Shown: in pieces, positions 1 through 41,711 of the stretch
How positions within the stretch are numbered: position 1 is the stretch's first letter
How the letters are laid out: each line of letters starts with the position of its first letter
DNA from: Nitrospinota bacterium
GTDB lineage: Bacteria > Nitrospinota_A > UBA7883
Assembly: GCA_965223725.1 (NCBI GenBank)
Contig: CBDCXE010000006.1
Coordinates: 610,012 to 674,011, forward strand
Length of the DNA: 64,000 bases
Reading direction: 5' to 3'
The notes under the pieces: model-generated
What the model was told of the DNA's origin: nothing
Seen by the model: the letters and a program-made list of their open reading frames with translations, nothing else
Databases searched by the model: none
Made by a program: the position numbers and the translations under genes

Positions 1-1
1 A

Positions 2-691
2 AAACTGGCTGAAAAAGCTGGCTATGAATTGATTAGCAATAATAGTGGAAGTAAAAAAACAATGTTTTTTATTGCTGATTCATTTGCTACATGGAACAAG
101 GAATATTTGGCAAGTTCATATAAAAACACTTTTATAGTAAATACATGGAGTCAATCATGGAGTCGTATGGAACAATTTCCAATAGATGCGATTAATACAA
201 TTAAACCAGATCTAGTTCTTATGCAATTTTCTGAAAGTCGCCTTGGTGTTAAACGAATAAGCCCATTCATTGTCCCACCATATGGCGGCGCAAACCCCCC
301 TCAAGTGAGGCAAGCTCGGCTGAGGCGACTCTACAAATCGACTAGGGACACTGCTTCGGCTACCGTTAAAAAGGTGTCTGGCGCTGATGGTAAATCGTTT
401 AATTTAGAATTAAACAAGCCAACAGCGAAAATGGTCATTGCACGCTTTGAAGTAATGGCGCATAAAGCGACGACTCTTTCTGTGCAATCCAACTTTAGGA
501 AAAAGGAGAAGTGGAGCGATCTATGCTATAAATATGACGAAATGACAATCATCCATATAAAGCCGGGACGTCACACTGTATATCTTTGTGGGCAGATAAA
601 AGAAAATATTTCTCACCTTACATTTGCAACAACTGAGCCACAGGACCTAACTATAGTAAAAGTGGATGTGCGACCGCATCTAGATCCGTAG
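2..691 (+). CDS. hypothetical protein, 5'-truncated at the window edge (frame open from nt 2; first ATG at 29)
   Basis: ORF track 29..691. The same frame has no stop back to nt 2, so the gene probably continues left of the window. Codon usage is AT-rich like the rest of the island. No catalytic motif recognised. Confidence 0.35.
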   Translation, partial: KLAEKAGYELISNNSGSKKTMFFIADSFATWNKEYLASSYKNTFIVNTWSQSWSRMEQFPIDAINTIKPDLVLMQFSESRLGVKRISPFIVPPYGGANPPQVRQARLRRLYKSTRDTASATVKKVSGADGKSFNLELNKPTAKMVIARFEVMAHKATTLSVQSNFRKKEKWSDLCYKYDEMTIIHIKPGRHTVYLCGQIKENISHLTFATTEPQDLTIVKVDVRPHLDP

Positions 692-765
692 CTATTATTT
701 CTCAGCCGCATTATATCGCATGATGATCCTTGGGCCATAAAGCCTATAGCAACGCTTTATAAAAT

Positions 766-1443
766 CTATTTTGGTTTAGAGCCGAGTATGAAAAACTGTT
801 TTCCTAGAAGAGGCCAGATCAGTGGGATTCGAAGATAAAGGGCTATGAGGGCTGGATGTTTTGGAAACCGCGATTTAGTAGAATAAGGTACAAACCGGTC
901 TATTAATCGATCAACACTAAATCCAGATTTCAGGAACGCTTCGGCGCACGATAAATGTGATAAAGGCAGATGATGGTCATAAAAATCCCAATATTGGCCT
1001 GGGACGTACCTGATATTCGGTTGTAAAGCCATAAATCGACCACCCGGTTCGAGGATACGTAAAACTTCCGCCAAAAGTGTATCAAAGGTCTTTTTGTCTG
1101 GCAAATGCTCGAAAAAATTACTGGTAAATACAACATTGACATCCTCATCCTTAATGAATGAGAGATCTGTTGCGGAGCCTAAATGAAAAGTTACATCAGG
1201 ACCAACAGATAAGGCGGAATCAGGGTTTAAATCCACGGCAAGTTTTTTCCCTGCGTTAATATGTCTGCTGAACTCCCCATATCCTGACGCCAAATCCAGA
1301 AGCGTGTCGCTTGGATTGATATACTGCTGGAAAAATTTTTCGCACAACACTTTCCAAACCATATCCTTTTCGAGTTTCTCCTTTTCAGAGAACCTGTGCC
1401 GATAGAGAACATCTACCTTCTCCACTGCTCTATCGCTCCACAC
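766..1443 (-). CDS. class I SAM-dependent methyltransferase
   Basis: Motif I-like VLDLASGYGEF followed by an acidic loop (Rossmann MTase fold). 225 aa. 14-nt overlap with the upstream GT2 gene, which suggests an operon. Confidence 0.7.
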   Translation of the reverse strand: MWSDRAVEKVDVLYRHRFSEKEKLEKDMVWKVLCEKFFQQYINPSDTLLDLASGYGEFSRHINAGKKLAVDLNPDSALSVGPDVTFHLGSATDLSFIKDEDVNVVFTSNFFEHLPDKKTFDTLLAEVLRILEPGGRFMALQPNIRYVPGQYWDFYDHHLPLSHLSCAEAFLKSGFSVDRLIDRFVPYSTKSRFPKHPALIALYLRIPLIWPLLGKQFFILGSKPK

Positions 1444-2146
1444 GCTCGTAATCAGCAGAAAAAATATTTTTCCATATTTTTAGCATATCTTTAATAGTAG
1501 CCAAGATATTTTTTACAGACACACTGTTACCTTGCCCAAAAGTTCGTGGAAAGGTCTGTATGCCAACCTGCCCGACCTGGTATCCTTTGAGCATGGATTT
1601 AATAGCTATTTCGGCGCCAATAAACGGGCTGTCAGATTCAAGCTTTATATCATCCGCGACTTTCTTTTTCATCATTCGCAGACCGGTGGAAATATCGCGA
1701 AAATGGGTGCGAAAAAGGAATCTTAATATGACATTATAGACCCAGGAGACAAAAATTCTCCAGTTCGAATAAATCTTCTTATAACGAAAGGTTATTATGA
1801 GATCATAATGATCTTTGACCAGAAAAATTTTGTTAAACTCGCCCACATCATACTGGTTATCTCCATCAAGCATTAATATCCACTCGTATTGACACGCGTT
1901 TATTCCTGTTCGAATAGCAGCCCCATAACCTCGGTTTTCCGGGTGATGAATAACTGATATATTTTTATGTTCGCCAGCCAGTTCATCAGCTATCGCGCCT
2001 GATCGATCGGGCGATCCATCATCCACAATAATAACTTCATATGGACAGCCAAGACTCTCAAGCAGGGCAATGGCGTTTTCTGCTACAGTACGGACGGTCC
2101 CCTCATCTCCATATACCGGAAAAAAAAGGCTTGCTGATGTAGGCAT
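1430..2146 (-). CDS. GT2-family polyprenyl-phosphate sugar synthase (Ppm1/ArnC/GtrB-like glycosyltransferase)
   Basis: EVIIVDDGSPD...HPENRGYGAAIRTG...LMLDGDNQYD. This is the typical GT-A DXD layout of dolichyl/undecaprenyl-phosphate hexosyltransferases, and the protein ends in a C-terminal helix. Confidence 0.75.
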   Translation of the reverse strand: MPTSASLFFPVYGDEGTVRTVAENAIALLESLGCPYEVIIVDDGSPDRSGAIADELAGEHKNISVIHHPENRGYGAAIRTGINACQYEWILMLDGDNQYDVGEFNKIFLVKDHYDLIITFRYKKIYSNWRIFVSWVYNVILRFLFRTHFRDISTGLRMMKKKVADDIKLESDSPFIGAEIAIKSMLKGYQVGQVGIQTFPRTFGQGNSVSVKNILATIKDMLKIWKNIFSADYERVER

Positions 2147-2159
2147 AATAATATTTAAC

Positions 2160-2897
2160 CTAAAAATTCATGCGACGGAAAATACTCCATGGTGTCCACT
2201 TTAAAGCAGCGGATATCCACATCCAAAAACTGGGAATATACCATACCCCCCCCTTATTACCTAGGTTATTAACAACCTTCTCTGCAATACGCTCCGGACT
2301 GGCTTTAGGGATAGGAGTAGACATCCCGAATGCCTGGCCAGTGTCGAGATAGCCAACAATGTAAAAAGATACCATTACACCGTATGGAGCAAATCCATGA
2401 CGTATCGACTCGAAAAAACTGGCCAAAGCCCGTTTAGCCGCGCTGTAGTAAATATTTGCATTCCTCCCTCTGGCAGCGGCGATAGAACCAAATCCTACAA
2501 TATCACCTTTGCGCTCTTTTATTATTTTAGGAGAAAAATAAGATATAATTTCGCTCACTGAAGAGAAATTGGCGGCCAATACTTCTATGCCTATAGTTTC
2601 ATCCGGAGGAAATCGATCTTCGTCCCAGGTTGCGCCAATCGGAAATAGCATTCCATTTAGCTCTCCGGTTTTGTCTATCGCCTTCTCAAGTTTACTGAGG
2701 TCAGGGCGGGATGAAGCGTTGAAGGAAAGGGCCACCGGACAAATGGAAACGCCATAGCGTATGGCGCAGTCTGTGGCAAGCGCATCCAGGTCACGCTGGT
2801 CACTGGAGACAATAACCAGGTTGGCTCCTATCCTGGCCAGCGCTACTGTAATTGCTCTTCCGAGGCCTGAAGACGCCCCAACGACAAGGTATGTCAT
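2160..2897 (-). CDS. short-chain dehydrogenase/reductase, DprE2-like (polyprenyl-phospho-2-keto-sugar 2-reductase)
   Basis: N-terminal VVGASSGLGRAIT dinucleotide motif. YSAAKRAL matches the catalytic YxxxK. The C-terminal WSIFRRM tail resembles DprE2 RSIFRKL. ATGA 4-nt overlap with the upstream FAD oxidase gene. Confidence 0.7.
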   Translation of the reverse strand: MTYLVVGASSGLGRAITVALARIGANLVIVSSDQRDLDALATDCAIRYGVSICPVALSFNASSRPDLSKLEKAIDKTGELNGMLFPIGATWDEDRFPPDETIGIEVLAANFSSVSEIISYFSPKIIKERKGDIVGFGSIAAARGRNANIYYSAAKRALASFFESIRHGFAPYGVMVSFYIVGYLDTGQAFGMSTPIPKASPERIAEKVVNNLGNKGGVWYIPSFWMWISAALKWTPWSIFRRMNF

Positions 2898-4228
2898 AGT
2901 CCTGCTCTCATAAGTAATTCAGACATAAATACCCTGTTTGGGTCAAGTTTATTAATTCGGTCAATAGTAAGTTCATACTCTGGATAACTGGCAGACACGA
3001 CCTCCTGTGAAAGTCGGGAGTCTTTAATCAGGTTGGGAATTGCTTTATGCTCCAGGCAAAGCTCGTCAAAAGCTGTGAGAAATATCGATGTAGAACTTGT
3101 CTGGGCCATATCAAGCGTAACGCATATCCCAGGGCCTGCAAAGCGAAAACCAGTTTGCAAGCCAGATGATTTTTTTAATGATATCATGACACCAGGAGCA
3201 TTGTGATTAAACAGCAACGCTTCCAAAAGTTCAAGGAATGCCCCTGCTTTTTCATCAGTTATAATTACCTGCGCTTCCGCCAAACCACGCTTGCCATAGG
3301 CTAAAAAATAATATGGGTTGGCGGCGAAAGGAAAAGTTGATGCAAATAACGATATATTGTTCGTAGAAGTTTTTTTCTCTTCTTGATGCAAATAAAATTT
3401 TAAAGCTGCATTTCTCAATGGGCTGGCCCAAAGGGAGATAGGTGAAATAGAGCGAGCTCGAGCGGTGATGGGTCGGTATGAGGGTGGAGATGTGAATTTA
3501 CCATTTCCCTCTGCTGGTTCACCTGTATACAAAAATCCTCGACCGAATAATCCTTTCGTGGGAGACGCAACATGGAATGTATAGGCAAAATTGGAAGAAG
3601 AAACAGCGCTCGAACGTAATTGTTCCAAACCTTCTGTCAATGAGTTTAGTGAACTGCGATGGAGAAGAGTCTTTTCTCCCTTTTTAATTTGTTCAAGACG
3701 AAGAGTGGCGCTTACGATAATTCCTGTGGAGCCATAACCACCACAGGTCAAATCGAAAAGTTCCTTGTTTTCTTCTTCCGACAACGTAATAAGACCATGA
3801 GCAGGATGATAGAGGACTAATGAGATTACACAAGAATGAAAGCTTCCTGCAACTCCAAAATTTTTTCCGTTTACATCTGCAGCAATGCAACCTCCAATAG
3901 TGATATCTGGATAGCCAGGTTGGACACCAAGGGCAAGCCCACGCCGGGAGGTGGCGCCTAAAAGTTCCCCCAGGGTTATACCAGCCTCAACAGTGACTGT
4001 TTTATTATTTTCATCCAGGAAAAGGATTCTGGAAAAAGAACGCATGGAGACCGTAGTGACACCTTGTCCAAAAGAGGCCGCTGCATAGGAATAGCCGCCA
4101 CCTTGAGCAATATATGGCCCTTTAGCCCACGTTTGGTCAAACACACGGTATCTATCAGGCCGCGCAAAGTCAGAAGAGATAGATATCTGGCCATCGAAAG
4201 ATAAAAATTTGCTTAACTCTGTTTTCAC
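2894..4228 (-). CDS. FAD-linked oxidase, DprE1-like (polyprenyl-phospho-sugar 2-oxidase)
   Basis: GGCIAADVNGKNFGVAGSFHSCV and STGIIVSATLRL match the DprE1 FAD-binding (PCMH) core GGAIACDIHGKNHHSAGSF / LTGIIMRATIEM. The C-terminal KDSR...YP...INKLDPNRVFMSELLMRAGL matches the DprE1 C-terminus. Confidence 0.75.
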   Translation of the reverse strand: MKTELSKFLSFDGQISISSDFARPDRYRVFDQTWAKGPYIAQGGGYSYAAASFGQGVTTVSMRSFSRILFLDENNKTVTVEAGITLGELLGATSRRGLALGVQPGYPDITIGGCIAADVNGKNFGVAGSFHSCVISLVLYHPAHGLITLSEEENKELFDLTCGGYGSTGIIVSATLRLEQIKKGEKTLLHRSSLNSLTEGLEQLRSSAVSSSNFAYTFHVASPTKGLFGRGFLYTGEPAEGNGKFTSPPSYRPITARARSISPISLWASPLRNAALKFYLHQEEKKTSTNNISLFASTFPFAANPYYFLAYGKRGLAEAQVIITDEKAGAFLELLEALLFNHNAPGVMISLKKSSGLQTGFRFAGPGICVTLDMAQTSSTSIFLTAFDELCLEHKAIPNLIKDSRLSQEVVSASYPEYELTIDRINKLDPNRVFMSELLMRAGL

Positions 4229-4779
4229 GTATTATTATGCTTGTTGATTATCTGTATTGTAGCAATTAATATTAAATTACTTACCGTCTGCCTAAATTAT
4301 TAGCCACCATGCCTGGAGAAAATAAAGAGATTTAGTCTATGCTCATAACTGTATTACAATAACGATTTAAATAAGTTAACTTCCTGGTTTTATCATAATA
4401 TAGCAGAGTTAAAATAAATTCTATATTGCCATATTATTTTTAAGTAAACTTTTTCCAAAATTATATAAGTAATAACCTCTGGTATGTGATATTTATTTTA
4501 TAAGAAATTTGCAAACAGTATCATGTGTGTTATCCTGTGTTGGATTTATGCCAAATAATGCAAAGTAATTATAACCGATAACAAATTAACTAATAAAGTC
4601 TTAAGATGCAATTGTATGGAGACTGCCAAAAAAAATGCGGACTTGTACCTGCAAGTTAAGCAAAAAATCTGTGAAAAGCGCTTGCTTATTTAGAACCTGA
4701 CGATAAAACTAAAATAAAATCGCCTGCATCAGTCTGGCAATGGCAACATCACATGTTTGTTTAAATAACACTATTTTAA
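4229..4779. promoter_or_regulatory. 550-bp extremely AT-rich divergent intergenic region (bidirectional promoter region for the DprE1-like operon and the GT-C-like gene)
   Basis: Divergent gene starts at 4228 (minus) and 4780 (plus). The region has long AT runs and no ORF of 60 aa or more. Confidence 0.35.
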
Positions 4780-7110
4780 TTGTCATTTATGCTTAAACCA
4801 ATTGTATACACTGCACTTACTTTTACGGTAATTATTATTTTTACCGTATTCAACCCACTTTTGCCTGGTGTGGGCCTCGATATTTCATGGTATCTTGCAA
4901 ACAACCAAGCAGTAGCGCAGAACGTGGTGTTTGGTGAGAATTTGCTAACTACGCTTGGTCCATACCCATCAATTTATTCGAACGTCTATCATCCTGATAT
5001 TCACCAAATGGCGTTACTAGGTGGCATACTGATTGGCGTATGCTATTCAGTATTATTATTGCTCATTGCGATTGAGTTAGACTGGAAATGGTTGATCCTT
5101 TACATTTGCTTCTTATTTGCCTGTCGTGTCCCGTTTGATACTTATTTGTTTTCATATATCTTCTTTATGTCAATAGTTGTCTACCGTATGACCCTGCCCA
5201 TCTCATCCAATCTTGTGTTGGAGAACACTGCACAAAACAAATGTTTTTATATTTTAGCGCTTGTACCATTGGGACTTTTGTTACTAACCAAAGGATCCGT
5301 CATACCATATATAGTATTAGCTGTTGGTATATGCGTCATTATGTTTTGGATGAGCCGTGATAAAGCATTCGCTTTAATTACTATCATAGTGCCAGTTGCC
5401 AGCTCTTTAGCTTTCTGGGTTGTTTCTGGACAACCTTTATGGGCCTTTCCAAAGTTTGTTGGTAATATGCTTGAAGTTATATTTGGATATTCAGATGCGA
5501 TGTCAGCATCAGGACCAGGTGGCTCATCGCATATTGCTTTGTATTTAATAACATCAGCGATGATTCTTTACCTAACGACAAAAAAAGAGTTTGGTCCACT
5601 CGTTTCAAGACTTCTGCTGTTTACAACGTTTTCATTATTTTTGTACGTTTCATTTAAAGCCGGTTTTGTTAGAGCCGGTATTGGCCATCAAATGATGGCT
5701 AGCACTTCTCTGGTCATAGCGGCGTTATCCATATTACTATTATCTAAAAGTAAATTGCGGTTAATCATACTGCCATTTGTAATAATTACATGGGTATTTA
5801 TTGACGGTCATTTTTATAATAAGCCGGCGGAGAACTTGACCGGGTTACTGCGCTGGGCTGTTGGTGACAGGAATTTTGAAGAAGAATATGAAAATAAATT
5901 TAGTGAAATTAACAGGAAATACTATATTCCTAAACTAACAGGGACAGTGGATATCTATTCTTTTGGTCAGTCATTTTTACTAGCTTCCGGAAATAAGTAT
6001 AACCCACGACCAACGGTGCAAAGTTTTGCGGCGTACACACCATATCTGGCTAGCCTGAACGAGAGATACATTCGAGGATCCAACGCGCCAGACAACATAT
6101 TATTTAGGGTGGAAACCATAGATCACCGATTTCCAAGCCTTGATGATGGAATAAGTTGGCCCACTTTGCTTAACAGATATGAAATATATGGATATGATGA
6201 ATATTTGGATTTATTCTACTTGAGGAAAAAGGCCGAGGCAAAGGGTGATCTTTTTGATGATGAAACAGTTGATATCCAAGGCAATTTCCAACAGGAGATA
6301 TCACTACCTGATAGTGAGGAGGTGTTGTTTGCAGAATTTGATATTAAGCCAACATTATTTGGCAGGGCTATGTCTATTATCTATAAACGCCCCAAAATTG
6401 AAATCAGTATTGTCCTGGAAAGTGGACGATCCCGAACTTATCGAATAATTCCTGGTATGGCCAAGTCTGGTTTTATTATTTCTCCGTTAATTGAACGCAC
6501 AAGAGAATTTATATTTCTAAACAAGCCATACCAGAGCTATTTATCTCCAAATCGTGTGAAAAGTATAGTAATTTCGTCAACTCAAGGTATTTTTAAATCG
6601 TGGGACGAACATTTCATGCTGCGACTTGGAAAGGTAAAGATAGAGTCAAATAGAGACGCCAACCTGTTAAAAGTCATAGATTACGATTACTCAAAAATGG
6701 CGCTACACCCAGCCCAATCTATTAAAATTAGTGTAAAGTGCCAGGGAGGAGTCGATACAATAAATGGCTTCAGGGTAGATAAAAAAATAATAAACGTTTC
6801 TAAAACACTCTTGGTCTATGGATGGTCCACTGCATATTCAACAAAAAGTAAAGTCGCCAGCAATATTTATTTGACTTTAACCGATATGCATGGAGAGACT
6901 AAATATTTGGAAACAAAAAAAGTTGTCAGGCCAAATCTTGCAGAGTATTTTAATAATCCAATGCTATTAAACGCTGGATATTTTGCGAATATTAATATTT
7001 CTAACATTGAAGGGAAATATGCTTTAGGCATATCCCATATGCTTAATGGCTCAATCAAACATTGTGCTAGTCCTCAAATTCAGCTAAATATTAATAAGCA
7101 ACCTAAATAA
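4780..7110 (+). CDS. polytopic membrane protein, candidate GT-C-fold glycosyltransferase using a lipid-linked sugar donor
   Basis: 776 aa. The N-terminal ~400 aa carry roughly 11-13 hydrophobic helices. The C-terminal ~370 aa form a soluble domain, the architecture of Emb/Aft/ArnT-type GT-C enzymes. The gene is divergent from the DprE1/DprE2/GT2 operon. Confidence 0.45.
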   Translation: MSFMLKPIVYTALTFTVIIIFTVFNPLLPGVGLDISWYLANNQAVAQNVVFGENLLTTLGPYPSIYSNVYHPDIHQMALLGGILIGVCYSVLLLLIAIELDWKWLILYICFLFACRVPFDTYLFSYIFFMSIVVYRMTLPISSNLVLENTAQNKCFYILALVPLGLLLLTKGSVIPYIVLAVGICVIMFWMSRDKAFALITIIVPVASSLAFWVVSGQPLWAFPKFVGNMLEVIFGYSDAMSASGPGGSSHIALYLITSAMILYLTTKKEFGPLVSRLLLFTTFSLFLYVSFKAGFVRAGIGHQMMASTSLVIAALSILLLSKSKLRLIILPFVIITWVFIDGHFYNKPAENLTGLLRWAVGDRNFEEEYENKFSEINRKYYIPKLTGTVDIYSFGQSFLLASGNKYNPRPTVQSFAAYTPYLASLNERYIRGSNAPDNILFRVETIDHRFPSLDDGISWPTLLNRYEIYGYDEYLDLFYLRKKAEAKGDLFDDETVDIQGNFQQEISLPDSEEVLFAEFDIKPTLFGRAMSIIYKRPKIEISIVLESGRSRTYRIIPGMAKSGFIISPLIERTREFIFLNKPYQSYLSPNRVKSIVISSTQGIFKSWDEHFMLRLGKVKIESNRDANLLKVIDYDYSKMALHPAQSIKISVKCQGGVDTINGFRVDKKIINVSKTLLVYGWSTAYSTKSKVASNIYLTLTDMHGETKYLETKKVVRPNLAEYFNNPMLLNAGYFANINISNIEGKYALGISHMLNGSIKHCASPQIQLNINKQPK

Positions 7111-7322
7111 ACCACCAATGCAGTCGATAACTAACAAGGCTATATATTACGTTAGCATTATTTCCAGCTGGCGCAGAATAAAAAGATATGTTTCGATTAA
7201 ACCGCACGATCGATTAAAAAATAGAAGAGATACGCGGTTCCATTTTGATTATTCACTGTTAAATTTATAACATATATATACAAACTGGCTACTGTAATAA
7301 TTTAGCGAGATTGCTGTTTGAG

Positions 7323-8270
7323 TCAATTCTGCTCCGCTTCCTTGACGGAATATGCTTTCTTGATTCCGAGTGTACAGCCGCCACATATTGGATGACCAAC
7401 TCTCGATTGGTTTTCAACTCTCAACTGCCTTAGTTCAGGTTTATTATAGATTTCCAAAATGCTTTCATCTTTAACATTGTACTTTCCTAAATCTCCATTC
7501 GCGTCCAGACAGCAAAATGCGACTTTACCATCGGAACAGATATGTATCTGGAACCATTTTGCACACCCTATATCCGGGGTTTCGCTGGTTTTGAGATCAC
7601 TTACCGAGCCTAACCAATTGAACGGTTCGGTAAGAGCGGGGTTAAACATAGGGAATTCATTTTCAACGAAAGCAACATAGTTATCATCATCCAAATTATT
7701 GCTTGCGACACGGGATAAAGTTACAGGAAAAGCAATGTTCCCGTTTACTTTTTCATCATGTAGTAATCTTAAATTGTTCATTATAAGATCCCACGATAGC
7801 CCCATGCTATGTTCATATTTTTCTGGTTCGCATTCATTAAGCGAGACGTTCAACATCATGATATTTTCAAGTTCTGCAAATTTATCGATGATTTTCCCAT
7901 TTAGAGGAGATCCATTTGTATAAAAAGGTATTCTTGCTTGCGGAGCGACCGTTTTTACTTTATCAATAGCATCGAAGATATCTTTATTTAGAAGCGGTTC
8001 ACTTAGGCTTGATAATACTATCCTTATTGGAAGTTTATTTGGAAATTCACCTAGGTCATGCAATATTTTTTCGAAAAGCTCACCTGACATTTTTTCACCT
8101 TTTCTAGATGAACTATCATATGGACAAAAATTGCAAGTAGCGTTACACAGGTTTAATAGATCAAATGTGACCTGGAAAGGATATTCAGAATATCGTTCTT
8201 GCAGAATGGATATCAGATTCTGATATTTAGTTAAAGATTCTTCATTATAGAAATCATTTTTATTATTCAT
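7323..8270 (-). CDS. radical SAM protein with C-terminal SPASM/twitch-like cysteine cluster
   Basis: CNATCNFC is a CX3CX2C radical-SAM motif near the N-terminus. A second Cys cluster lies C-terminally (CSDGKVAFCCLD ... GHPICGGCTLG). Confidence 0.65.
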   Translation of the reverse strand: MNNKNDFYNEESLTKYQNLISILQERYSEYPFQVTFDLLNLCNATCNFCPYDSSSRKGEKMSGELFEKILHDLGEFPNKLPIRIVLSSLSEPLLNKDIFDAIDKVKTVAPQARIPFYTNGSPLNGKIIDKFAELENIMMLNVSLNECEPEKYEHSMGLSWDLIMNNLRLLHDEKVNGNIAFPVTLSRVASNNLDDDNYVAFVENEFPMFNPALTEPFNWLGSVSDLKTSETPDIGCAKWFQIHICSDGKVAFCCLDANGDLGKYNVKDESILEIYNKPELRQLRVENQSRVGHPICGGCTLGIKKAYSVKEAEQN

Positions 8271-8367
8271 GGCAATATTTCCATTTGAAACGAAACCAAC
8301 ATTGCTATAGTAACTGAAAAATTAAATGGCAGGTTGACTGATTTGCAAGTAGAAAAACGTCATGGAG

Positions 8368-9009
8368 TCAATACCGCAATAACCACCCATTTGGAGAATA
8401 AGTTACATTGTATCCATAAAAATCACAATAAGACGCATCGATCTTATAGCGTTTGTAATTTGCTTTTAGGAATGCTTCTACCGCCCGGTTAGGGCCATTA
8501 TTAAACATTTCAAACTGTTTAAGAGGCATGTCATTCAAAATGCCATCCTCTATCACAATATATTCGCCCGGGTGAAGGTAATTATCAAAAAAATTAAGAG
8601 CAGCAGTGCATGTTTCAAATAGATGACCACTATCTTCTACCACTAGCCACGGACGGGGAAGCGAAGATAAAAAACTCTCCGGTAACACTTTTTCCAAATC
8701 AAGGACATCCCCTTCAAGAAATGTTATCCGTTCATCTTCAAACGTTGCTATCGGGTTATTGTCGATGGTGACTATGCGAGGTTGATAACCCATGTTTGAA
8801 GCTGTATCGGCAAACCATAGAGCGCTTCCGCCTTCCTTTGTGCCCAGTTCGATAATAGTCTTTGGTAAGGTTTTCTGGATAAGACGCATATATGAAACGA
8901 TATCAAAAGGGCATTTGATGAATCGGTAACCTTTATAAGTTGTACGTGCAATACCTTGATGAATACCTATTATAGTATCTGCTGGTAGCGATGATTTAAA
9001 GTCACGCAT
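8368..9009 (-). CDS. CmcI/cephalosporin-hydroxylase-family SAM methyltransferase (rhamnosyl O-methyltransferase-like)
   Basis: IIELGTKEGGSALWFAD resembles the CmcI family (PF04989-like) Rossmann motif. 213 aa. Confidence 0.5.
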   Translation of the reverse strand: MRDFKSSLPADTIIGIHQGIARTTYKGYRFIKCPFDIVSYMRLIQKTLPKTIIELGTKEGGSALWFADTASNMGYQPRIVTIDNNPIATFEDERITFLEGDVLDLEKVLPESFLSSLPRPWLVVEDSGHLFETCTAALNFFDNYLHPGEYIVIEDGILNDMPLKQFEMFNNGPNRAVEAFLKANYKRYKIDASYCDFYGYNVTYSPNGWLLRY

Positions 9010-9187
9010 CGAAGTTACAATTACTTTTCATTTTTATGATGCAATTTATAGCATTCGTTTGTTTTGTTAACTTTTTTACGCTTTCCAAACAGTACTTGCT
9101 ATCAATCGATTAGCGCTGGTTTATGATTTGTCTGGGTTGTGTTCAAAGAGTTGCAAATAATAGTTATATTTTTGTTATCTATTGATT

Positions 9188-10036
9188 CTAGTCTGGCGAT
9201 TTCTTTTTTAACGCAAAAAAGCCTTGTTCTAGTACGTCAGGATGATCGACGTAATAGATAAGATCGAGAAACCCACCCCACATCCTTCTAGCGTAAGCAT
9301 CGGTCATGAAAGAATAACCGTAATCAAGATGATTGTAATTGCCTTTGCCGGAGCCTGGCATAAAGACCATTTCTCCCATTTCCATAAATTCAACAAACCG
9401 GCCAAAAGATTCTAAAAAAGGTCGATGTGCTTCACGACGGGACGGTGGCAGTTGATCAACAGGAGTTTCCATTATCGTCTGGTAATGGCCCATGCCAAAC
9501 GATGTAATGAATATCACACCATTAGGTTTTAGGGTGCGTGACATTTCATGCAACCAGTCCAGCCCATGCGCCTGACTTAAATGTGAAAAGACTGAATAGG
9601 CAGTAATGTAATCAAACGATTCATCCTGAAAAGGAAGTTTTGGCGGTTTCGCCGCAATCGGGTGAAAAGTCCCTTGAGGGAAATCTTTTTTTACAGTTTT
9701 GACAAAATCTGGAACCACGTCAACTCCATGAATATGAGCGGCTGGAACATTGCGCAAAAATGTCCTTCCAATACGAGCTGTAGTACCGCAACCAAAATCG
9801 AGAATCTTTGAGTTTTTATCGAGCGTCAAACCTTTACGCCATATTGCGCGTGTAGCTTCGTTATAAAAGCATGTTGCCTCAGATATAGAATCTTTGGCGG
9901 TTGCGCTTCCAAGCATGGCATTATGGGAATACTTGCCGAAGGCCCCCCCATCGACACTATTGTCTGCAAGCGATTCAATCCATGCGTCCCTGAATTCTTC
10001 AACAGGCTTTTTTTCATATTTTTCAAACAGTTCCAC
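9188..10036 (-). CDS. class I SAM-dependent methyltransferase
   Basis: Motif I ILDFGCGTTARIG. Motif II/III acidic residues follow. Confidence 0.7.
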   Translation of the reverse strand: MELFEKYEKKPVEEFRDAWIESLADNSVDGGAFGKYSHNAMLGSATAKDSISEATCFYNEATRAIWRKGLTLDKNSKILDFGCGTTARIGRTFLRNVPAAHIHGVDVVPDFVKTVKKDFPQGTFHPIAAKPPKLPFQDESFDYITAYSVFSHLSQAHGLDWLHEMSRTLKPNGVIFITSFGMGHYQTIMETPVDQLPPSRREAHRPFLESFGRFVEFMEMGEMVFMPGSGKGNYNHLDYGYSFMTDAYARRMWGGFLDLIYYVDHPDVLEQGFFALKKKSPD

Positions 10037-10269
10037 GTTATCAAGGCCTCCGTTAGTCGCAAATGTAATAATGATTAGCCTCGCAATATAGCATACTTGT
10101 TAAACAGAGCAAATATTTTTAGCTATAGCAACGCTCGATTGCAGACATAATCACTTTTTGGTGTTGCCACAATTTACGCACTAAATACAATTTGTCATTG
10201 ATTTTGTCTGCGAGAAATTTTTCGGTAAACCACTTTACCTTGTTATAAGAACTTTTATACATAAACTTC

Positions 10270-11259
10270 CTATTTGGGAGAGGGTAATGTATACCCAGCG
10301 CTTTTTAGATCTAACCCGGTTAACGTAGAAAGAGATAAGTTATCTTCAGCATAATATTCGTTAATGAATTTCATAGACTCTGGTGAAAAGTATCGCGGGG
10401 GTGTGTCAATATATGAGATAAGCTCCATCACTCTTCCATGAACCCCTTCTTCAAAAGTACCCCATGGCCGATAGTCGTATGAAGGGTCCACTCTTTTTCG
10501 CAATCTACCCATTTTTTTTAAGATACGCTGATACCCACTGCCAAACCTTCCAAAAGATACATTATGCCTGGGTTCTTCACTGAGAAAGTCTGCGCATTTT
10601 TTTGTATCAATGCCAGCAAACTCAGATAACGTTTTTGCAAACAGGTCCAGATTGCCCTTCAACCATTCAAGGGGGATAACCAAAACATTTTCTTTTCCAA
10701 AAGTGTCCTGGTAACAACTTACCAATGGACTGTAAAGATATTGCCGCAGATGAAAGTCATTCTGTTGGCCATGATAGTAGTTGAAGGACCTCATCCAGTT
10801 TATCCAGTCATCGCTTGAACCTGTAAACAAGTCTCTCGTAGCAAGCCATCGATAGCCAGAAAATAGAACTGACTTTTGCTCCCTTATGGTTATGAGAATT
10901 CTTACCTTGCCGAAAATACTCTGCAATCGCTGACAGATTAACAAAGGGTCTGCCGCGCCAGCTAAAGATAGCGCTTCTTCAGATAGAACTGTAACAGGCT
11001 TCTCGTTAAGCCGGGGCTTGATACCATGATCATATAACTTATAGGCATTATTCAAATCAAAAAAGTAAGCTGAATGCTGACATATAGATTCAAGCAAAGA
11101 AGCAGTTGATTTGCTCATATCATACCCAACGGCTTCATCCCAATAAGGTTTCCCAAGGTACCGAATATCTGGATGTTTTGCGAACAGGTTAAATTGTAAG
11201 GTGGTAGTGCCGGTTTTCGGCGGGCCGATATGGATAATAAAAGAAGACTCGTTCGCCAT
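10270..11259 (-). CDS. sulfotransferase (PAPS-dependent)
   Basis: N-terminal 5'-PSB loop HIGPPKTGTTTLQ. 329 aa. 1-nt junction with the upstream sulfotransferase gene. Confidence 0.65.
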   Translation of the reverse strand: MANESSFIIHIGPPKTGTTTLQFNLFAKHPDIRYLGKPYWDEAVGYDMSKSTASLLESICQHSAYFFDLNNAYKLYDHGIKPRLNEKPVTVLSEEALSLAGAADPLLICQRLQSIFGKVRILITIREQKSVLFSGYRWLATRDLFTGSSDDWINWMRSFNYYHGQQNDFHLRQYLYSPLVSCYQDTFGKENVLVIPLEWLKGNLDLFAKTLSEFAGIDTKKCADFLSEEPRHNVSFGRFGSGYQRILKKMGRLRKRVDPSYDYRPWGTFEEGVHGRVMELISYIDTPPRYFSPESMKFINEYYAEDNLSLSTLTGLDLKSAGYTLPSPK

Positions 11260-12032
11260 CAGGTCAACAGTTTCTTTTTCAGGTCATTAAACCTGCCCAC
11301 TGCCTGGTGATAGACATCCATTTCTTCTGCCAGCAGTGATTCCAGCTTTTGGCGTTCAGCGGTTGTAATTTTATCCCTGTCAGTTTTTCCATCCGGGTTT
11401 ACATTTATAAAACGTACAGGCTCAACTTTTCCTGACTTGTTAACAGTCAATCTGCCACTGGCATATCGATAGGCGATCCTTTGAAAGTAATTCATATTGA
11501 TCATGTTTTCGACTTCGCTTCTGTCATAGGCTTCTGGCAATCGAAGCTTTGTATTCAGAAACACTTCCAGCATTTCTATTGTAACGCCCAATTCTTCAGA
11601 TAACCCGATGAAATCGTATTCATTGATGGGTTTTCCCTCCAGATAAATGGCCATAGCTCTTGTCATACTAGGGAACGAAGCGAAAGTGACCACATCAAAA
11701 CCATTTTGTTTCATAAACTGGTACGATGGCTTGGTTTCATCTTTTATCCGTAAGATATGCCGATAATTTGAGATCATACGATCAACCGGATGCCTGACAC
11801 AGGTAATGTAGGAAGCGTCATCAAATATACCTTCATACTTTTTGTAGTGAAAATGCCCATGGATCATTTTAAACCGCCTAAGGAAATCTTTATGCAAAAT
11901 TACCTGCGCCCTGTCCTCATCCCTGGGGATATGTTGGTAATAATCAAAATATACGTGGCGGCTGAACGAGTGGTCGAAATAGTTGGCTAATGTGGTGCCA
12001 GCAGTTTTCGGGATGTGTATGGAAATAATCAT
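11259..12032 (-). CDS. sulfotransferase (carbohydrate sulfotransferase-like, Sulfotransfer_2-type)
   Basis: N-terminal IHIPKTAGTTLANYF 5'-PSB motif, typical of Gal-3-O / HS-2-O sulfotransferase-like enzymes. 257 aa. Confidence 0.65.
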   Translation of the reverse strand: MIISIHIPKTAGTTLANYFDHSFSRHVYFDYYQHIPRDEDRAQVILHKDFLRRFKMIHGHFHYKKYEGIFDDASYITCVRHPVDRMISNYRHILRIKDETKPSYQFMKQNGFDVVTFASFPSMTRAMAIYLEGKPINEYDFIGLSEELGVTIEMLEVFLNTKLRLPEAYDRSEVENMINMNYFQRIAYRYASGRLTVNKSGKVEPVRFINVNPDGKTDRDKITTAERQKLESLLAEEMDVYHQAVGRFNDLKKKLLT

Positions 12033-12309
12033 ATCAGGAGATTATAAATCAATTAAACTAGATCAGCTTTTGTAAGCGAATAATTGCATTCATTAAAACC
12101 CCATCTGATTTGCGTATTTAAATAGAATTGTTTTCGTATCTTTCCGGCGGGATTTTATCACACACTAATATTTCCTTACAACCGAACATGAATAAATCAG
12201 AACGACAGCAATTAAATTAAATAGTTTTATTTATATAATATACAGCATGATCAAAGCCTTACCCTGTATAATATGTATTTGTGGCCACTAAAATATTTTC
12301 ATCTATCTA

Positions 12310-12338
12310 TTGACACCCACCACCAAAATTTATAAACT
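12310..12338 (+). promoter_or_regulatory. sigma70-type promoter candidate for the tRNA-tuf operon (-35 TTGACA, 17-nt spacer, -10 TAAACT)
   Basis: TTGACA at 12310-12315. TAAACT at 12333-12338. The first tRNA starts ~57 nt downstream. Confidence 0.35.
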
Positions 12339-12394
12339 ACTCGTTTATTGTTTTCAAAGGCTAGTGTTTCCGGTATTTTAGAAAGGTTTTCGGC

Positions 12395-12470
12395 GCCGGC
12401 GTAGCTCAGTTGGTAGAGCAGCTGATTTGTAATCAGCAGGCCGCGGGTTCGAGTCCCATCGCCGGCTCCA
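12395..12470 (+). tRNA. thrU: tRNA-Thr (anticodon TGT)
   Basis: Cloverleaf read by eye. Acceptor stem GCCGGCG/CGCCGGC. GTAGCTCAGTTGGTAGAGC D-arm. Anticodon loop TTTGTAA. GGTTCGAGTCC T-arm. Encoded CCA. Confidence 0.9.
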
Positions 12471-40973: not shown

Positions 40974-41711
40974 ATGAACGAAAAAATCGATATACAAGTA
41001 CAAAAAGAAACCGAGCGCTCCGACAAGTCCAAGCTTAGGCAATATCAGGACATGGTGGTGGGCAGCCGGTCGATATGGTTTTTGATCAAGTTCGAGCTGG
41101 TCGCTTTGTTTGTATCACGAATTCCCGGGGCGCTGGGCCTGCTGTTGCGGAAAATATTTTATCCAATGATATTGGCGGAAGTGGGCAGCGGTGTAGTGTT
41201 TGGGACAGACTGCTGGTTCCGCCACCCGGGCAAGATAAGAATAGGCGCCGACACGATTATAGACGACGGTGTGTTGATCGACGCCAAAGGATCGAACAAT
41301 AAAGGTGTACTTATCGGCCGGGGCTGCTACATAGGCCGGGGGACGGTGCTCAGCTGCAAGGAGGGGGACATCATACTGGGCGAGGCTGTGAACCTTTCCA
41401 CATGGTGCAATATTTCTTCAAACTCCAGTATCGAGATCGAAGAGAAAACATTGCTGGGCCCCTACGCTTCCATATTCGCCACGGAGCACAACTTCGATGA
41501 TCCAGGCATCGATATCCTGGATCAGAAATGGTCCAGCAAGGGCGTGACGATAAAACGGAACTGTTGGCTGGGCGCCAGGGTGACCGTGCTGGATGGTGTC
41601 AGCGTGGGGGCCAATACCATTATCGGCGCCGGCTCGGTGGTCAACGATGATTTGCCGGATGATGCGATCGCGGTGGGCTCGCCGGCGAAAACTGTGAAAC
41701 AGAGGCGATGA
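40974..41711 (+). CDS. membrane-anchored left-handed beta-helix (hexapeptide-repeat) acetyltransferase, WcaF/NeuD-like sugar O-acetyltransferase
   Basis: N-terminal TM helix. Hexapeptide repeats IGRGCYIGRGTV...LGARVTVLDGVSVGANTIIGAGSVV. Confidence 0.7.
   Translation: MNEKIDIQVQKETERSDKSKLRQYQDMVVGSRSIWFLIKFELVALFVSRIPGALGLLLRKIFYPMILAEVGSGVVFGTDCWFRHPGKIRIGADTIIDDGVLIDAKGSNNKGVLIGRGCYIGRGTVLSCKEGDIILGEAVNLSTWCNISSNSSIEIEEKTLLGPYASIFATEHNFDDPGIDILDQKWSSKGVTIKRNCWLGARVTVLDGVSVGANTIIGAGSVVNDDLPDDAIAVGSPAKTVKQRR

What the first reader, a model, noticed from the sequence alone, without database searches (positions are those of the whole stretch)
10270..12032. Two adjacent PAPS-type sulfotransferases in a bacterial glycan cluster
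Both ORFs begin with the 5'-phosphosulfate-binding loop (IHIPKTAGTT and HIGPPKTGTTT). One resembles eukaryote-like carbohydrate sulfotransferases (Sulfotransfer_2). Their genes abut with a 1-nt junction and precede two methyltransferases and a radical-SAM gene.

Sulfated bacterial glycans and glycolipids are uncommon; known examples are Nod factors, mycobacterial sulfolipids and some marine EPS. Here two distinct sulfation steps appear to be combined with O-methylation and a lipid-linked sugar epimerisation.
Basis: partly seen in the sequence, partly recalled or inferred. Interest (0 to 1): 0.6.

Follow-up and report, generated by a model that had tools for sequence, protein, structure and literature searches.

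The report
Paired sugar sulfotransferases in glycan locus
Two overlapping genes in a low-GC surface-polysaccharide gene cluster of an uncultured marine bacterium encode genuine but very different PAPS-type carbohydrate sulfotransferases, which predicts a sulfated and methylated surface glycan; this is a new example of a known kind of system, not a new kind.

Summary
Two minus-strand ORFs fill 10270-12032: ST-A (12032..11259, 257 aa) and ST-B (11259..10270, 329 aa). They overlap by one base (TGATG). Each opens with a strand-PKTxGTT-helix loop.

ST-A passes Pfam Sulfotransfer_2. It keeps every heparan-sulfate 2-O-sulfotransferase landmark: PKTAGT, H58-G-H60, R80...S88. Its AlphaFold model matches HS2ST best.

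ST-B alone falls just below the Pfam cut-offs. A profile of its 23-member family hits sulfotransferase 3RNL (E 4e-19) and the NDST1 N-sulfotransferase domain (8e-8). Its model (pLDDT 90) matches only sulfotransferases. K15, R126 and S134 are conserved, and an invariant E95 sits where a catalytic base is expected.

Neither protein has a membrane segment, so sulfation is cytoplasmic.

Homologues recur together in ABC-transporter, WsaF-glycosyltransferase, dTDP-rhamnose and O-methyltransferase loci of several phyla. The closest locus keeps the order A-B-methyltransferase and the same TGATG junction.

The acceptor (probably a 6-deoxyhexose/rhamnose-type residue) and the PAPS supply are inferred, not shown. 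The adjacent DprE1/DprE2-like genes are not part of the conserved module.

Multi-sulfotransferase polysaccharide clusters are already described (Vibrio KMM 8419, synechan). Verdict: real, a new member of a known kind, modest interest.

The parts
11259..12032 (-). ST-A: 257-aa soluble Sulfotransfer_2-type (HS2ST-like) sulfotransferase. 5'-PSB PKTAGTT at 11991-12011; H58-G-H60 at 11853-11861; 3'-PB RHPVDRMIS (R80...S88) at 11769-11795.
   Evidence: Pfam PF03567 39.8 bits. phmmer to HS2ST 3F5F/4NDZ aligns all three motifs. These residues are invariant in 21 homologues. AF2 model pLDDT 83.5; top Foldseek hits are HS2ST at E ~1e-6. No hydrophobic segment. Motif coordinates checked.
10270..11259 (-). 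ST-B: 329-aa soluble sulfotransferase of a rare, divergent subfamily (3RNL/NDST/3-OST-like). 5'-PSB GPPKTGTTT at 11200-11226; S93-E94-E95 at 10975-10983; 3'-PB REQKSVLFS (R126...S134) at 10858-10884.
   Evidence: Sub-threshold Pfam hits. Family profile against PDB: 3RNL 4e-19, 1NST 8e-8, 3-OST 2e-3. Invariant H10, G12, T19, Q22, S93, E95, R126; near-invariant S134. AF2 pLDDT 89.9. All 50 listed Foldseek PDB hits are sulfotransferases. Coordinates checked.
11257..11261 (-). TGATG stop/start overlap (1 nt) that couples ST-A and ST-B.
   Evidence: Sequence. The identical TGATG junction occurs between the orthologous pair in L005.
12033..12394 (-). AT-rich (about 38% GC) non-coding leader between the tRNA-Thr gene and ST-A; presumed promoter region of the ST-A/ST-B transcript.
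   Evidence: No ORF here. Only weak sigma-70-like matches, no more than in shuffled sequence. Function is inferred.
9188..10036 (-). Class-I SAM methyltransferase (Methyltransf_25/11); third member of the conserved ST-A/ST-B/MT cassette.
   Evidence: Pfam. 49% identical orthologue directly after the ST-B orthologue in L005/L006.
8368..9009 (-). CmcI/rhamnosyl O-methyltransferase-family methyltransferase (sugar O-methyltransferase type).
   Evidence: PF04989 93.2 bits. NCBIfam rhamnosyl O-methyltransferase 69.5 bits, far below its 400-bit equivalog cut-off.
7323..8270 (-). Radical-SAM/SPASM enzyme; role unknown; not conserved with the sulfotransferase module.
   Evidence: PF04055 and PF13186. 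No homologue in L001-L006.
4780..7110 (+). 776-aa polytopic membrane protein of a large uncharacterised family; candidate periplasmic glycan-modifying transferase (inferred).
   Evidence: No Pfam or NCBIfam hit. 87 hydrophobic windows. 5,910 cluster representatives at E<=1e-3. The six homologues tested also lack any Pfam hit above the cut-offs.
2894..4228 (-). DprE1-like FAD oxidoreductase.
   Evidence: PF01565. NCBIfam DprE1 E 8e-47, 160 bits, cut-off 500: family-level similarity only.
2160..2897 (-). Short-chain dehydrogenase, DprE2-like.
   Evidence: PF00106. NCBIfam DprE2 E 4.7e-17, below cut-off.
1430..2146 (-). Small soluble GT2 glycosyltransferase of the polyprenyl-phosphate-sugar synthase type.
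   Evidence: PF00535. Sub-threshold NCBIfam hits to AglJ, ArnC, PpgS and dolichyl-P-hexose transferase.
766..1443 (-). Class-I SAM methyltransferase.
   Evidence: Methyltransf_11/25.
2..691 (+). C-terminal part of an AlgX-like protein whose gene starts left of the window, so the glycan locus continues beyond the window edge.
   Evidence: Open frame from base 2. 32% identity to the C-terminus of the PF16822 AlgX-like protein of L004. MBOAT-AlgX pairs accompany the sulfotransferase genes in L004, L005, L007 and L008.

Best explanation
ST-A and ST-B are two soluble, cytoplasmic, PAPS-dependent carbohydrate O-sulfotransferases. They are made from one translationally coupled message.

Each should bind PAPS through an N-terminal strand-loop-helix: Lys9 in ST-A and Lys15 in ST-B contact the 5'-phosphosulfate. 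A later strand-turn-helix binds the 3'-phosphate (Arg80/Ser88 in ST-A; Arg126/Ser134 in ST-B). A general base then activates a sugar hydroxyl for in-line attack on the sulfuryl group. In ST-A that base is His60 of the HGH motif, as in HS2ST. In ST-B it is probably Glu95, as in NDST and 3-OST.

Because both enzymes and PAPS are cytoplasmic, they should act on a lipid-linked surface-glycan intermediate before export. Together with the neighbouring O-methyltransferases they would place two different sulfate groups on it. Related loci suggest the acceptor is a rhamnose-type (6-deoxyhexose) residue of an ABC-transporter-exported polysaccharide.

Shown: enzyme family, motifs, fold, coupling, and recurrent genomic association. 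Inferred: donor use, acceptor, timing, and product.
For: - Family and motifs: Pfam; the HS2ST alignment covers PKTAGT/PKTAST, HGH/HGH and RHPVDRMIS/RDPIERLVS; these residues are invariant in each family; the ST-B profile hits 3RNL at 4e-19 and NDST1 at 8e-8.
- Fold: confident AF2 models whose best PDB matches are HS2ST for ST-A and 3RNL/3-OST/NDST for ST-B. In both models the strand order is PSB strand, base strand, 3'-PB strand.
- Location: no TM segment in either protein.
- Coupling: TGATG overlap here and in L005.
- Context: ST-A and ST-B homologues co-occur in L001, L002/3/14, L004, L005/6 and L008 with Wzm/Wzt, WsaF, TylF/MT24 methyltransferases, rml genes and MBOAT/AlgX.
- A WsaF-like glycosyltransferase lies directly upstream of ST-A in the eight best-scoring homologous loci.
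- Of 80 genome loci with an ST-A homologue, 43 carry Wzt or WsaF within 10 kb.
- Distant ST-B homologues also sit in polysaccharide loci.
- Precedent: a sulfated Rha3S4Ac capsule made by an ABC-transporter cluster with three sulfotransferase genes (PMC11641403).
Against: - No biochemical data exist for any member of either subfamily.
- The window shows no Wzm/Wzt, WsaF or rml gene, so the pathway and acceptor are extrapolated from loci that share only 33-50% identity.
- No cysDN/cysC/cysQ gene lies in the window and the rest of the genome could not be retrieved.
- ST-B's catalytic base is assigned from invariance and position only; no residue-level alignment to a solved enzyme covers it.
- ST-B alone is below Pfam gathering scores.
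- A WsaF-like fold does not prove a rhamnosyltransferase.
Confidence: 0.75

Rival explanations
1. The two enzymes are true sulfotransferases, but their acceptor is not a surface polysaccharide. It could instead be a glycolipid or lipo-oligosaccharide, a small metabolite, or a peptide matured by the nearby radical-SAM/SPASM enzyme.
For: A radical-SAM/SPASM gene, a type often used in peptide maturation, lies about 2 kb downstream. Characterised bacterial sulfotransferases such as NodH and Stf0 act on glycolipids (PMC11625862). The window shows no polymerase or exporter gene.
Against: The radical-SAM gene is not conserved with the sulfotransferase pair in any related locus. Every related locus examined is a polysaccharide locus with ABC-2 transporter, glycosyltransferases and NDP-sugar genes. 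No precursor-peptide-like ORF or peptide-maturation partner was seen among the ORFs of at least 60 aa. ST-A's nearest structural relatives are polysaccharide sulfotransferases.
Confidence: 0.12
2. Only ST-A is catalytically active. ST-B is a degenerate paralogue that serves as a non-catalytic partner or acceptor-binding subunit, which would explain its sub-threshold Pfam scores.
For: ST-B misses both Pfam cut-offs. Its catalytic base cannot be aligned to a solved enzyme. Tight translational coupling would suit a heteromeric complex.
Against: The PAPS-binding residues (K/R15, T18/T19, R126, S134) and S93/E95 are invariant or nearly so down to 25% identity, which indicates selection on an active site. 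The family profile matches active sulfotransferases strongly. ST-B homologues occur without an adjacent ST-A in L087 and L088.
Confidence: 0.06
3. The PKTxGTT segments are P-loop-like and the proteins are nucleotide or sugar kinases, or other P-loop enzymes, rather than sulfotransferases.
For: Sulfotransferases share their core fold with nucleotide kinases. Weak Foldseek hits of ST-A to guanylate kinase and PSTK appear at E 1e-3 to 1e-2.
Against: The kinase hits are about 1,000-fold weaker than HS2ST. The sulfotransferase-specific 3'-PB Arg...Ser motif and the HGH motif are conserved. Only sulfotransferase families are found by Pfam and PDB sequence searches. ST-B's listed structural hits are all sulfotransferases.
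Confidence: 0.03

Closest known systems
Heparan sulfate 2-O-sulfotransferase (HS2ST; PDB 3F5F, 4NDZ), Pfam Sulfotransfer_2 (PF03567)
   Same: ST-A shares the PKTA[GS]T 5'-PSB loop, the HGH catalytic-histidine motif and the R-x7-S 3'-PB motif in the same order on the same strands. HS2ST is also its best structural match.
   Different: Only 16-18% identity. ST-A is 257 aa and soluble, with no type-II membrane anchor and no Golgi context. The acceptor is unknown and almost certainly not a uronic acid of heparan sulfate. It is a bacterial subfamily with its own invariant H92, N212 and Y241.
Alicyclobacillus acidocaldarius sulfotransferase 3RNL; NDST1 N-sulfotransferase domain (1NST); HS 3-O-sulfotransferases
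   Same: The ST-B family profile and model match these best. The GxxKtGTT loop, the R/S 3'-PB helix and the C-terminal helices align.
   Different: 12-16% identity. ST-B has an insertion of about 50 residues between the PSB helix and the putative base strand. 3RNL has no assigned function in the PDB record (its molecule name is only 'Sulfotransferase'). The Glu base is only positionally inferred.
Sulfated capsule locus of Vibrio sp. KMM 8419 (PMC11641403)
   Same: A marine bacterium with a polysaccharide locus that holds several sulfotransferase genes, rml genes, an acyltransferase and an ABC transporter. The product contains L-Rha3S4Ac. This is the same overall logic as the loci that carry ST-A/ST-B homologues.
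   Different: That locus carries its own cysDNC copies, and this window does not. None of those sulfotransferases has been assayed either.
Synechan (xss) cluster of Synechocystis PCC 6803, XssA and XssE (bioRxiv 10.1101/2021.02.01.429190)
   Same: Two sulfotransferases of distinct subfamilies sit inside one bacterial extracellular-polysaccharide cluster, and the product has two sulfates per repeat.
   Different: It is a Wzx/Wzy-type cluster on a megaplasmid. The two genes are not adjacent or overlapping. Relatedness to ST-A/ST-B was not tested.
Rhizobial NodH/NoeE and mycobacterial Stf0 glycolipid sulfotransferases
   Same: All are soluble bacterial PAPS-dependent sugar O-sulfotransferases.
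   Different: They act on lipo-chitooligosaccharides or trehalose and belong to other subfamilies: NodH to Sulfotransfer_3 with an RxG PSB loop, Stf0 with Ala/Arg in the PSB loop (PMC11625862). None appears among the sequence or structure hits of ST-A or ST-B.

Membership tests
PAPS-dependent sulfotransferase superfamily (Pfam Sulfotransfer_1/2/3) | 5'-phosphosulfate-binding strand-loop-helix with a conserved Lys (or Arg) and Thr/Ser | tested here: met
   ST-A has P8-K9-T10-A11-G12-T13, invariant in 21 sequences. ST-B has G12-x-x-K15-T-G-T18-T19, with K/R15 and T18/T19 conserved in 23 sequences. Both lie after the first strand of the models.
PAPS-dependent sulfotransferase superfamily (Pfam Sulfotransfer_1/2/3) | 3'-phosphate-binding strand-turn-helix with Arg...Ser eight residues apart | tested here: met
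   ST-A R80/S88 are invariant and align with HS2ST RDPIERLVS. ST-B R126 is invariant and S134 is conserved in at least 90%; they align with 3RNL RNPVDRAFS. The two families align with each other only here.
PAPS-dependent sulfotransferase superfamily (Pfam Sulfotransfer_1/2/3) | General base (His or Glu) after the second core strand | tested here: inconclusive
   ST-A meets it: H58-G-H60 is invariant and aligns with the HS2ST HGH motif. ST-B has an invariant S93/E95 at the end of strand 89-93, but no residue-level alignment to a solved enzyme covers it.
PAPS-dependent sulfotransferase superfamily (Pfam Sulfotransfer_1/2/3) | Sulfotransferase fold | tested here: met
   ST-B model (pLDDT 89.9): all 50 listed PDB hits are sulfotransferases, led by 3RNL, 3-OST5 and NDST1. 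ST-A model (pLDDT 83.5): top hits are HS2ST, then NDST1, 3RNL, SULT7A1 and HS6ST.
PAPS-dependent sulfotransferase superfamily (Pfam Sulfotransfer_1/2/3) | Score above the curated Pfam gathering threshold | tested here: inconclusive
   ST-A passes: PF03567 39.8 against 22, PF00685 30.4 against 22. ST-B alone does not: PF00685 21.6 against 22, PF13469 19.2 against 27. More distant ST-B relatives carry PF13469/PF00685 in the precomputed annotation.
PAPS-dependent sulfotransferase superfamily (Pfam Sulfotransfer_1/2/3) | Sulfuryl transfer from PAPS, with a PAPS supply (ATP sulfurylase plus APS kinase) in the genome | not testable with these tools
   No cysD/N/C/Q gene in the 64-kb window. The source genome could not be retrieved. 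CysDN/CysC are reported for Nitrospinota genomes in general (PMC10839748, PMC3578206), the nearest named relatives by PolA.
Heparan sulfate 2-O-sulfotransferase orthologues (animal Golgi enzymes) | Type-II membrane anchor and lumenal enzyme acting on uronic acid of heparan sulfate | tested here: not met
   ST-A starts directly with the PSB strand and has no hydrophobic segment. Identity is 16-18%. ST-A works like an HS2ST-type enzyme but is not an orthologue.
ABC-transporter-dependent (Wzm/Wzt) polysaccharide locus | ABC-2 permease and ATPase genes in the same locus | tested here: not met
   No Wzm/Wzt homologue anywhere in the window. They are present next to ST-A/ST-B homologues in L001, L002, L004, L005 and L007. 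The locus runs off the left edge of the window, so absence is not established.

The most novel reading that the evidence does not exclude
The ST-A/ST-B/methyltransferase cassette does not decorate every repeat. Instead it builds a sulfated, O-methylated residue at the non-reducing end of an ABC-transporter-exported glycan. This would be a sulfate-containing chain-terminating and export signal, analogous to the methyl or phospho-methyl caps made by WbdD in E. coli O8/O9a, and would be a new chemical class of terminator. The evidence does not exclude this reading: in L002 and L004 the ST-B homologue follows Wzm-Wzt-TylF methyltransferase directly, and in the closest loci ST-A follows a WsaF-type glycosyltransferase directly.
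Probability: 0.1. Interest if true: 0.65.

Novelty: new member of a known kind. Interest (0 to 1): 0.3.

Why it matters
No polysaccharide sulfotransferase of either subfamily has been assayed, and rhamnose or deoxyhexose sulfotransferases are still unidentified even in algae (PMC11625862). A compact, translationally coupled pair that recurs with WsaF-type glycosyltransferases and sugar O-methyltransferases gives concrete candidates for expression and assay. It also flags a rare subfamily (ST-B) that standard Pfam thresholds miss. Finally, it predicts a sulfated, methylated surface glycan in an uncultured marine or vent lineage related to Nitrospinota-labelled MAGs. It does not reveal a new type of system.

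Tried and rejected
- **Retrieving the source genome.** The aim was to look for cysDN/cysC, Wzm/Wzt, WsaF and rml genes left of the window. Exact-product look-ups for ST-B and the GT2 found nothing on record. A genome-contig scan with the AlgX-like fragment found no relative. The second scan, with the ST-A family, gave a best hit of only 36% identity, so the genome is not among the species representatives. Cluster look-ups gave no names.
- **Residue-level alignment of ST-B's putative Glu base to a solved enzyme.** The profile search and a search with the shorter relative P0020 both align only from the 3'-PB region onward.
- **Mobile-island idea.** No att-like repeat or tRNA fragment flanks the low-GC region. 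The only repeats are the tRNA genes themselves and short chance matches. The island lies 5' of tRNA-Thr, not at a 3' end.
- **RiPP or peptide-sulfation idea.** Rejected as the leading explanation because the radical-SAM/SPASM gene is absent from all related loci.
- **Kinase idea.** Rejected on hit ranking and motifs.
- **Naming the 776-aa membrane protein.** No Pfam or NCBIfam family matches it, and the six homologues tested have no Pfam hit above the cut-offs.
- **Promoter and terminator scans.** They gave no more sites than shuffled sequence.
- **Rfam.** Only the tRNAs were found.
Full report
**1. What is there**

The reported interval 10270-12032 holds exactly two minus-strand ORFs.
- ST-A runs 12032..11259 (257 aa) and starts MIISIHIPKTAGTT.
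- ST-B runs 11259..10270 (329 aa) and starts MANESSFIIHIGPPKTGTTT.
- The junction reads ...ACC TGATG GCG..., so stop and start share one base.

Downstream on the same strand lie three further genes:
- a Methyltransf_25 methyltransferase (10036..9188);
- a CmcI/rhamnosyl-O-methyltransferase-family methyltransferase (9009..8368);
- a radical-SAM/SPASM gene (8270..7323).

A 776-aa polytopic membrane protein with no family match converges on these from the other strand (4780..7110). Further left, again on the minus strand, are:
- a DprE1-like FAD oxidase (4228..2894);
- a DprE2-like short-chain dehydrogenase (2897..2160);
- a small GT2 (2146..1430);
- another methyltransferase (1443..766).

At the left edge, an open frame from base 2 to 691 is the C-terminus of an AlgX-like protein, so the locus continues beyond the window.

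The block from base 1 to about 12400 has 33-47% GC, against about 50% for the adjacent housekeeping genes: tRNA Thr-Tyr-Gly-Thr, tuf, rpoB and rpoC. Such a drop is common for surface-polysaccharide loci. No integration scars were found.

**2. Are they sulfotransferases?**

*ST-A: yes, by every available test.*
- It passes Pfam Sulfotransfer_2 (39.8 bits, cut-off 22) and Sulfotransfer_1.
- phmmer finds heparan sulfate 2-O-sulfotransferase (3F5F/4NDZ). PKTAGT aligns with PKTAST, IHGHF with YHGHV, and RHPVDRMIS with RDPIERLVS.
- From general knowledge of HS2ST, these are its 5'-phosphosulfate loop, catalytic histidines and 3'-phosphate Arg/Ser.
- In an alignment of 21 homologues down to 28% identity, K9, T10, T13, H58, G59, H60, R80 and S88 are invariant.
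- The AlphaFold model (pLDDT 83.5) matches HS2ST best (E about 1e-6), followed by NDST1, 3RNL, SULT7A1 and HS6ST.

*ST-B: weaker as a single sequence, clear as a family.*
- Alone it scores 21.6 bits on Sulfotransfer_1 (cut-off 22) and 19.2 bits on Sulfotransfer_3 (cut-off 27).
- A profile of 23 family members hits the Alicyclobacillus sulfotransferase 3RNL at E 4e-19, the NDST1 N-sulfotransferase domain at 8e-8 and 3-O-sulfotransferases at 2e-3. The PSB loop, the 3'-PB helix and the C-terminal helices all align.
- H10, G12, T19, Q22, S93, E95, R111, R126, Y183 and N307 are invariant. T18 and S134 are nearly so. Position 15 is Lys or Arg.
- The model is confident (pLDDT 89.9, pTM 0.87), and every listed Foldseek PDB hit is a sulfotransferase.
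- In both models the three functional segments sit in the canonical order, at the ends of consecutive core strands.
- Glu95 is invariant and lies where NDST and 3-OST carry their glutamate base. No residue-level alignment to a solved enzyme covers it, so this assignment stays an inference.

*Relationship between the two.* Profile-profile comparison aligns ST-A and ST-B only across the 3'-PB segment. They are two distant subfamilies, not a recent duplication.

**3. Where they act**

Neither protein has a hydrophobic segment. Both are therefore cytoplasmic, like PAPS itself. Sulfation must precede export, on a lipid-linked intermediate or on a polymer finished in the cytoplasm. This step is inference.

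**4. Evidence from elsewhere**

Both families looked sparse in a word-indexed search of 5.8 billion proteins, a search that can miss distant relatives.
- ST-B gave 26 hits; the best non-self hit is 44% identical.
- ST-A gave 71 hits; the best non-self hit is 51% identical.

Their homologues travel together.
- In L005/L006 the order is WsaF-like glycosyltransferase, ST-A, ST-B, Methyltransf_25. Identities to the window proteins are 49-50%, and the A/B junction is the same TGATG.
- L001, L002/L003/L014 (Chthoniobacterales MAG), L004 and L008 (Phycisphaerales MAG) carry both families.
- These loci also carry Wzm/Wzt ABC-2 transporters, WsaF-like glycosyltransferases, TylF/Methyltransf_24 sugar O-methyltransferases, rmlABCD and MBOAT/AlgX O-acetylation pairs.

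Eighty species-representative genome loci hold an ST-A homologue. They include Colwellia, Planktothrix, Stella, Pseudogemmobacter, Paracoccus, many Bacteroidota and cyanobacteria.
- 32 have a Wzt homologue within 10 kb, 19 have a WsaF homologue, and 43 have one or the other.
- In the eight best-scoring loci the WsaF-like gene lies directly upstream of ST-A on the same strand.

More distant ST-B relatives (L087, L088) also sit in polysaccharide loci.

By contrast, the DprE1/DprE2-like genes, the GT2, the radical-SAM gene, the CmcI-type methyltransferase and the 776-aa membrane protein have no counterpart in L001-L006. Only ST-A/ST-B, and in the closest relative the Methyltransf_25, form the conserved module. 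The window itself has no Wzm/Wzt, WsaF or rml homologue, although the locus is cut at the window edge.

**5. Organism and sulfate donor**

The source contig (810,643 bp, NCBI/ENA) carries no name in the protein collection.
- PolA is 71% identical to proteins from a hydrothermal-vent metagenome and from a MAG labelled Nitrospirae.
- It is 60-63% identical to several MAGs labelled Nitrospinota.
- The host is therefore an uncultured marine or vent bacterium near that group.

No PAPS-synthesis gene lies in the window, and the genome could not be retrieved. CysDN and CysC are reported in Nitrospinota genomes generally (PMC10839748, PMC3578206), so a PAPS supply is plausible but unverified.

**6. 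Most likely mechanism**

A single transcript yields ST-A and ST-B in coupled fashion. Each transfers sulfate from PAPS to a different hydroxyl of a surface-glycan intermediate. ST-A would use His60 as base and ST-B probably Glu95. The adjacent O-methyltransferases would modify the same glycan.

The conserved WsaF-ST-A adjacency, the rml genes in related loci and the CmcI-type methyltransferase here point to a rhamnose-type 6-deoxyhexose as acceptor. I rate that about 0.4, because WsaF-like does not prove rhamnosyl transfer and the window lacks these genes.

The DprE1/DprE2-like pair, the GT2 and the large membrane protein look like a separate module for adding a sugar from a polyprenyl-phosphate donor outside the cytoplasm. 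Its link to sulfation rests on adjacency alone.

**7. Comparison with the known, and verdict**

- ST-A works like HS2ST but is not an orthologue: it is soluble, 16-18% identical, and has a different acceptor.
- ST-B works like the NDST/3-OST/3RNL group.
- At system level the closest described cases are two. One is the sulfated Rha3S4Ac capsule locus of Vibrio sp. KMM 8419, with three sulfotransferase genes, rml genes and an ABC transporter (PMC11641403). The other is the synechan cluster, with two sulfotransferases of distinct subfamilies (bioRxiv 10.1101/2021.02.01.429190). In neither case have the sulfotransferases been assayed.

It is a new member of a known kind. Three points are modestly new:
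- a rare ST-B subfamily that Pfam thresholds miss;
- a conserved, overlapping A-B pair;
- the prediction of a sulfated glycan in this lineage.

A more novel reading is that the cassette builds a sulfated terminal cap that ends chain growth in an ABC-transporter pathway. The data do not exclude it, and nothing specifically supports it (probability about 0.1).

Noticed in passing
window 4780-7110 (+): A 776-aa polytopic membrane protein has no Pfam or NCBIfam match, yet 5,910 cluster representatives match it at E<=1e-3 (1,408 at 1e-30) in the 1.84-billion-protein library. Six homologues tested also have no Pfam hit above the cut-offs. It is a large uncharacterised family, here beside DprE1/DprE2-like and GT2 genes, and could be a periplasmic glycan-modifying transferase.
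   Followed up: partly
window 1430-4228 (-): A small soluble GT2 (PpgS/dolichyl-P-hexose-transferase-like), a DprE2-like SDR and a DprE1-like FAD oxidase sit in a row. This suggests 2-epimerisation of a polyprenyl-phosphate-linked sugar outside the Actinobacteria, started by a GT2 rather than a UbiA-type PRPP transferase. All NCBIfam scores are far below the equivalog cut-offs. The genes are not shared with loci that carry the sulfotransferase module.
   Followed up: partly
window 2-691 (+): This ORF runs off the left edge of the window. It is the C-terminus of an AlgX-like (PF16822-type) protein. MBOAT-AlgX pairs accompany the sulfotransferase genes in L004, L005, L007 and L008, so the glycan is probably also O-acetylated and the locus extends beyond the window.
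   Followed up: partly
L005 (366-3306 and 18136-18362) and L006: The closest relative of the ST-A/ST-B/MT cassette lies on a 19-kb contig that also carries a ParE toxin, a phage-type integrase and a Replicase/PriCT_1 gene. The cassette may therefore travel on a plasmid or integrative element. Related loci span about 50-70% GC and several phyla.
   Followed up: no
L007-L011, L001, L005 (about 8.5-10.7 kb in each locus): A WsaF-like glycosyltransferase gene lies directly upstream of the ST-A homologue in the eight best-scoring loci. This conserved glycosyltransferase-sulfotransferase pair is missing from the window, where ST-A is the first gene after the tRNA cluster.
   Followed up: yes
window 1-12400 versus 12400-64000: The glycan locus has 33-47% GC, against about 50% for the neighbouring tRNA-tuf-rpoBC region and other housekeeping genes. 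No flanking repeats or tRNA fragments were found.
   Followed up: yes
window 41708-44305 (+): An 865-aa ORF with no Pfam match follows a hexapeptide-repeat transferase gene and BamD/FlgT_C-like genes.
   Followed up: no
L060 (Paracoccus pacificus CGMCC 1.12755): This cultured strain has rmlCBDA, a WsaF-like gene, an ST-A-like gene, a Methyltransf_24 gene and a weak ST-B-like match (30% over 156 aa) within 13 kb. It is a practical organism for testing whether the module yields a sulfated, methylated glycan.
   Followed up: no
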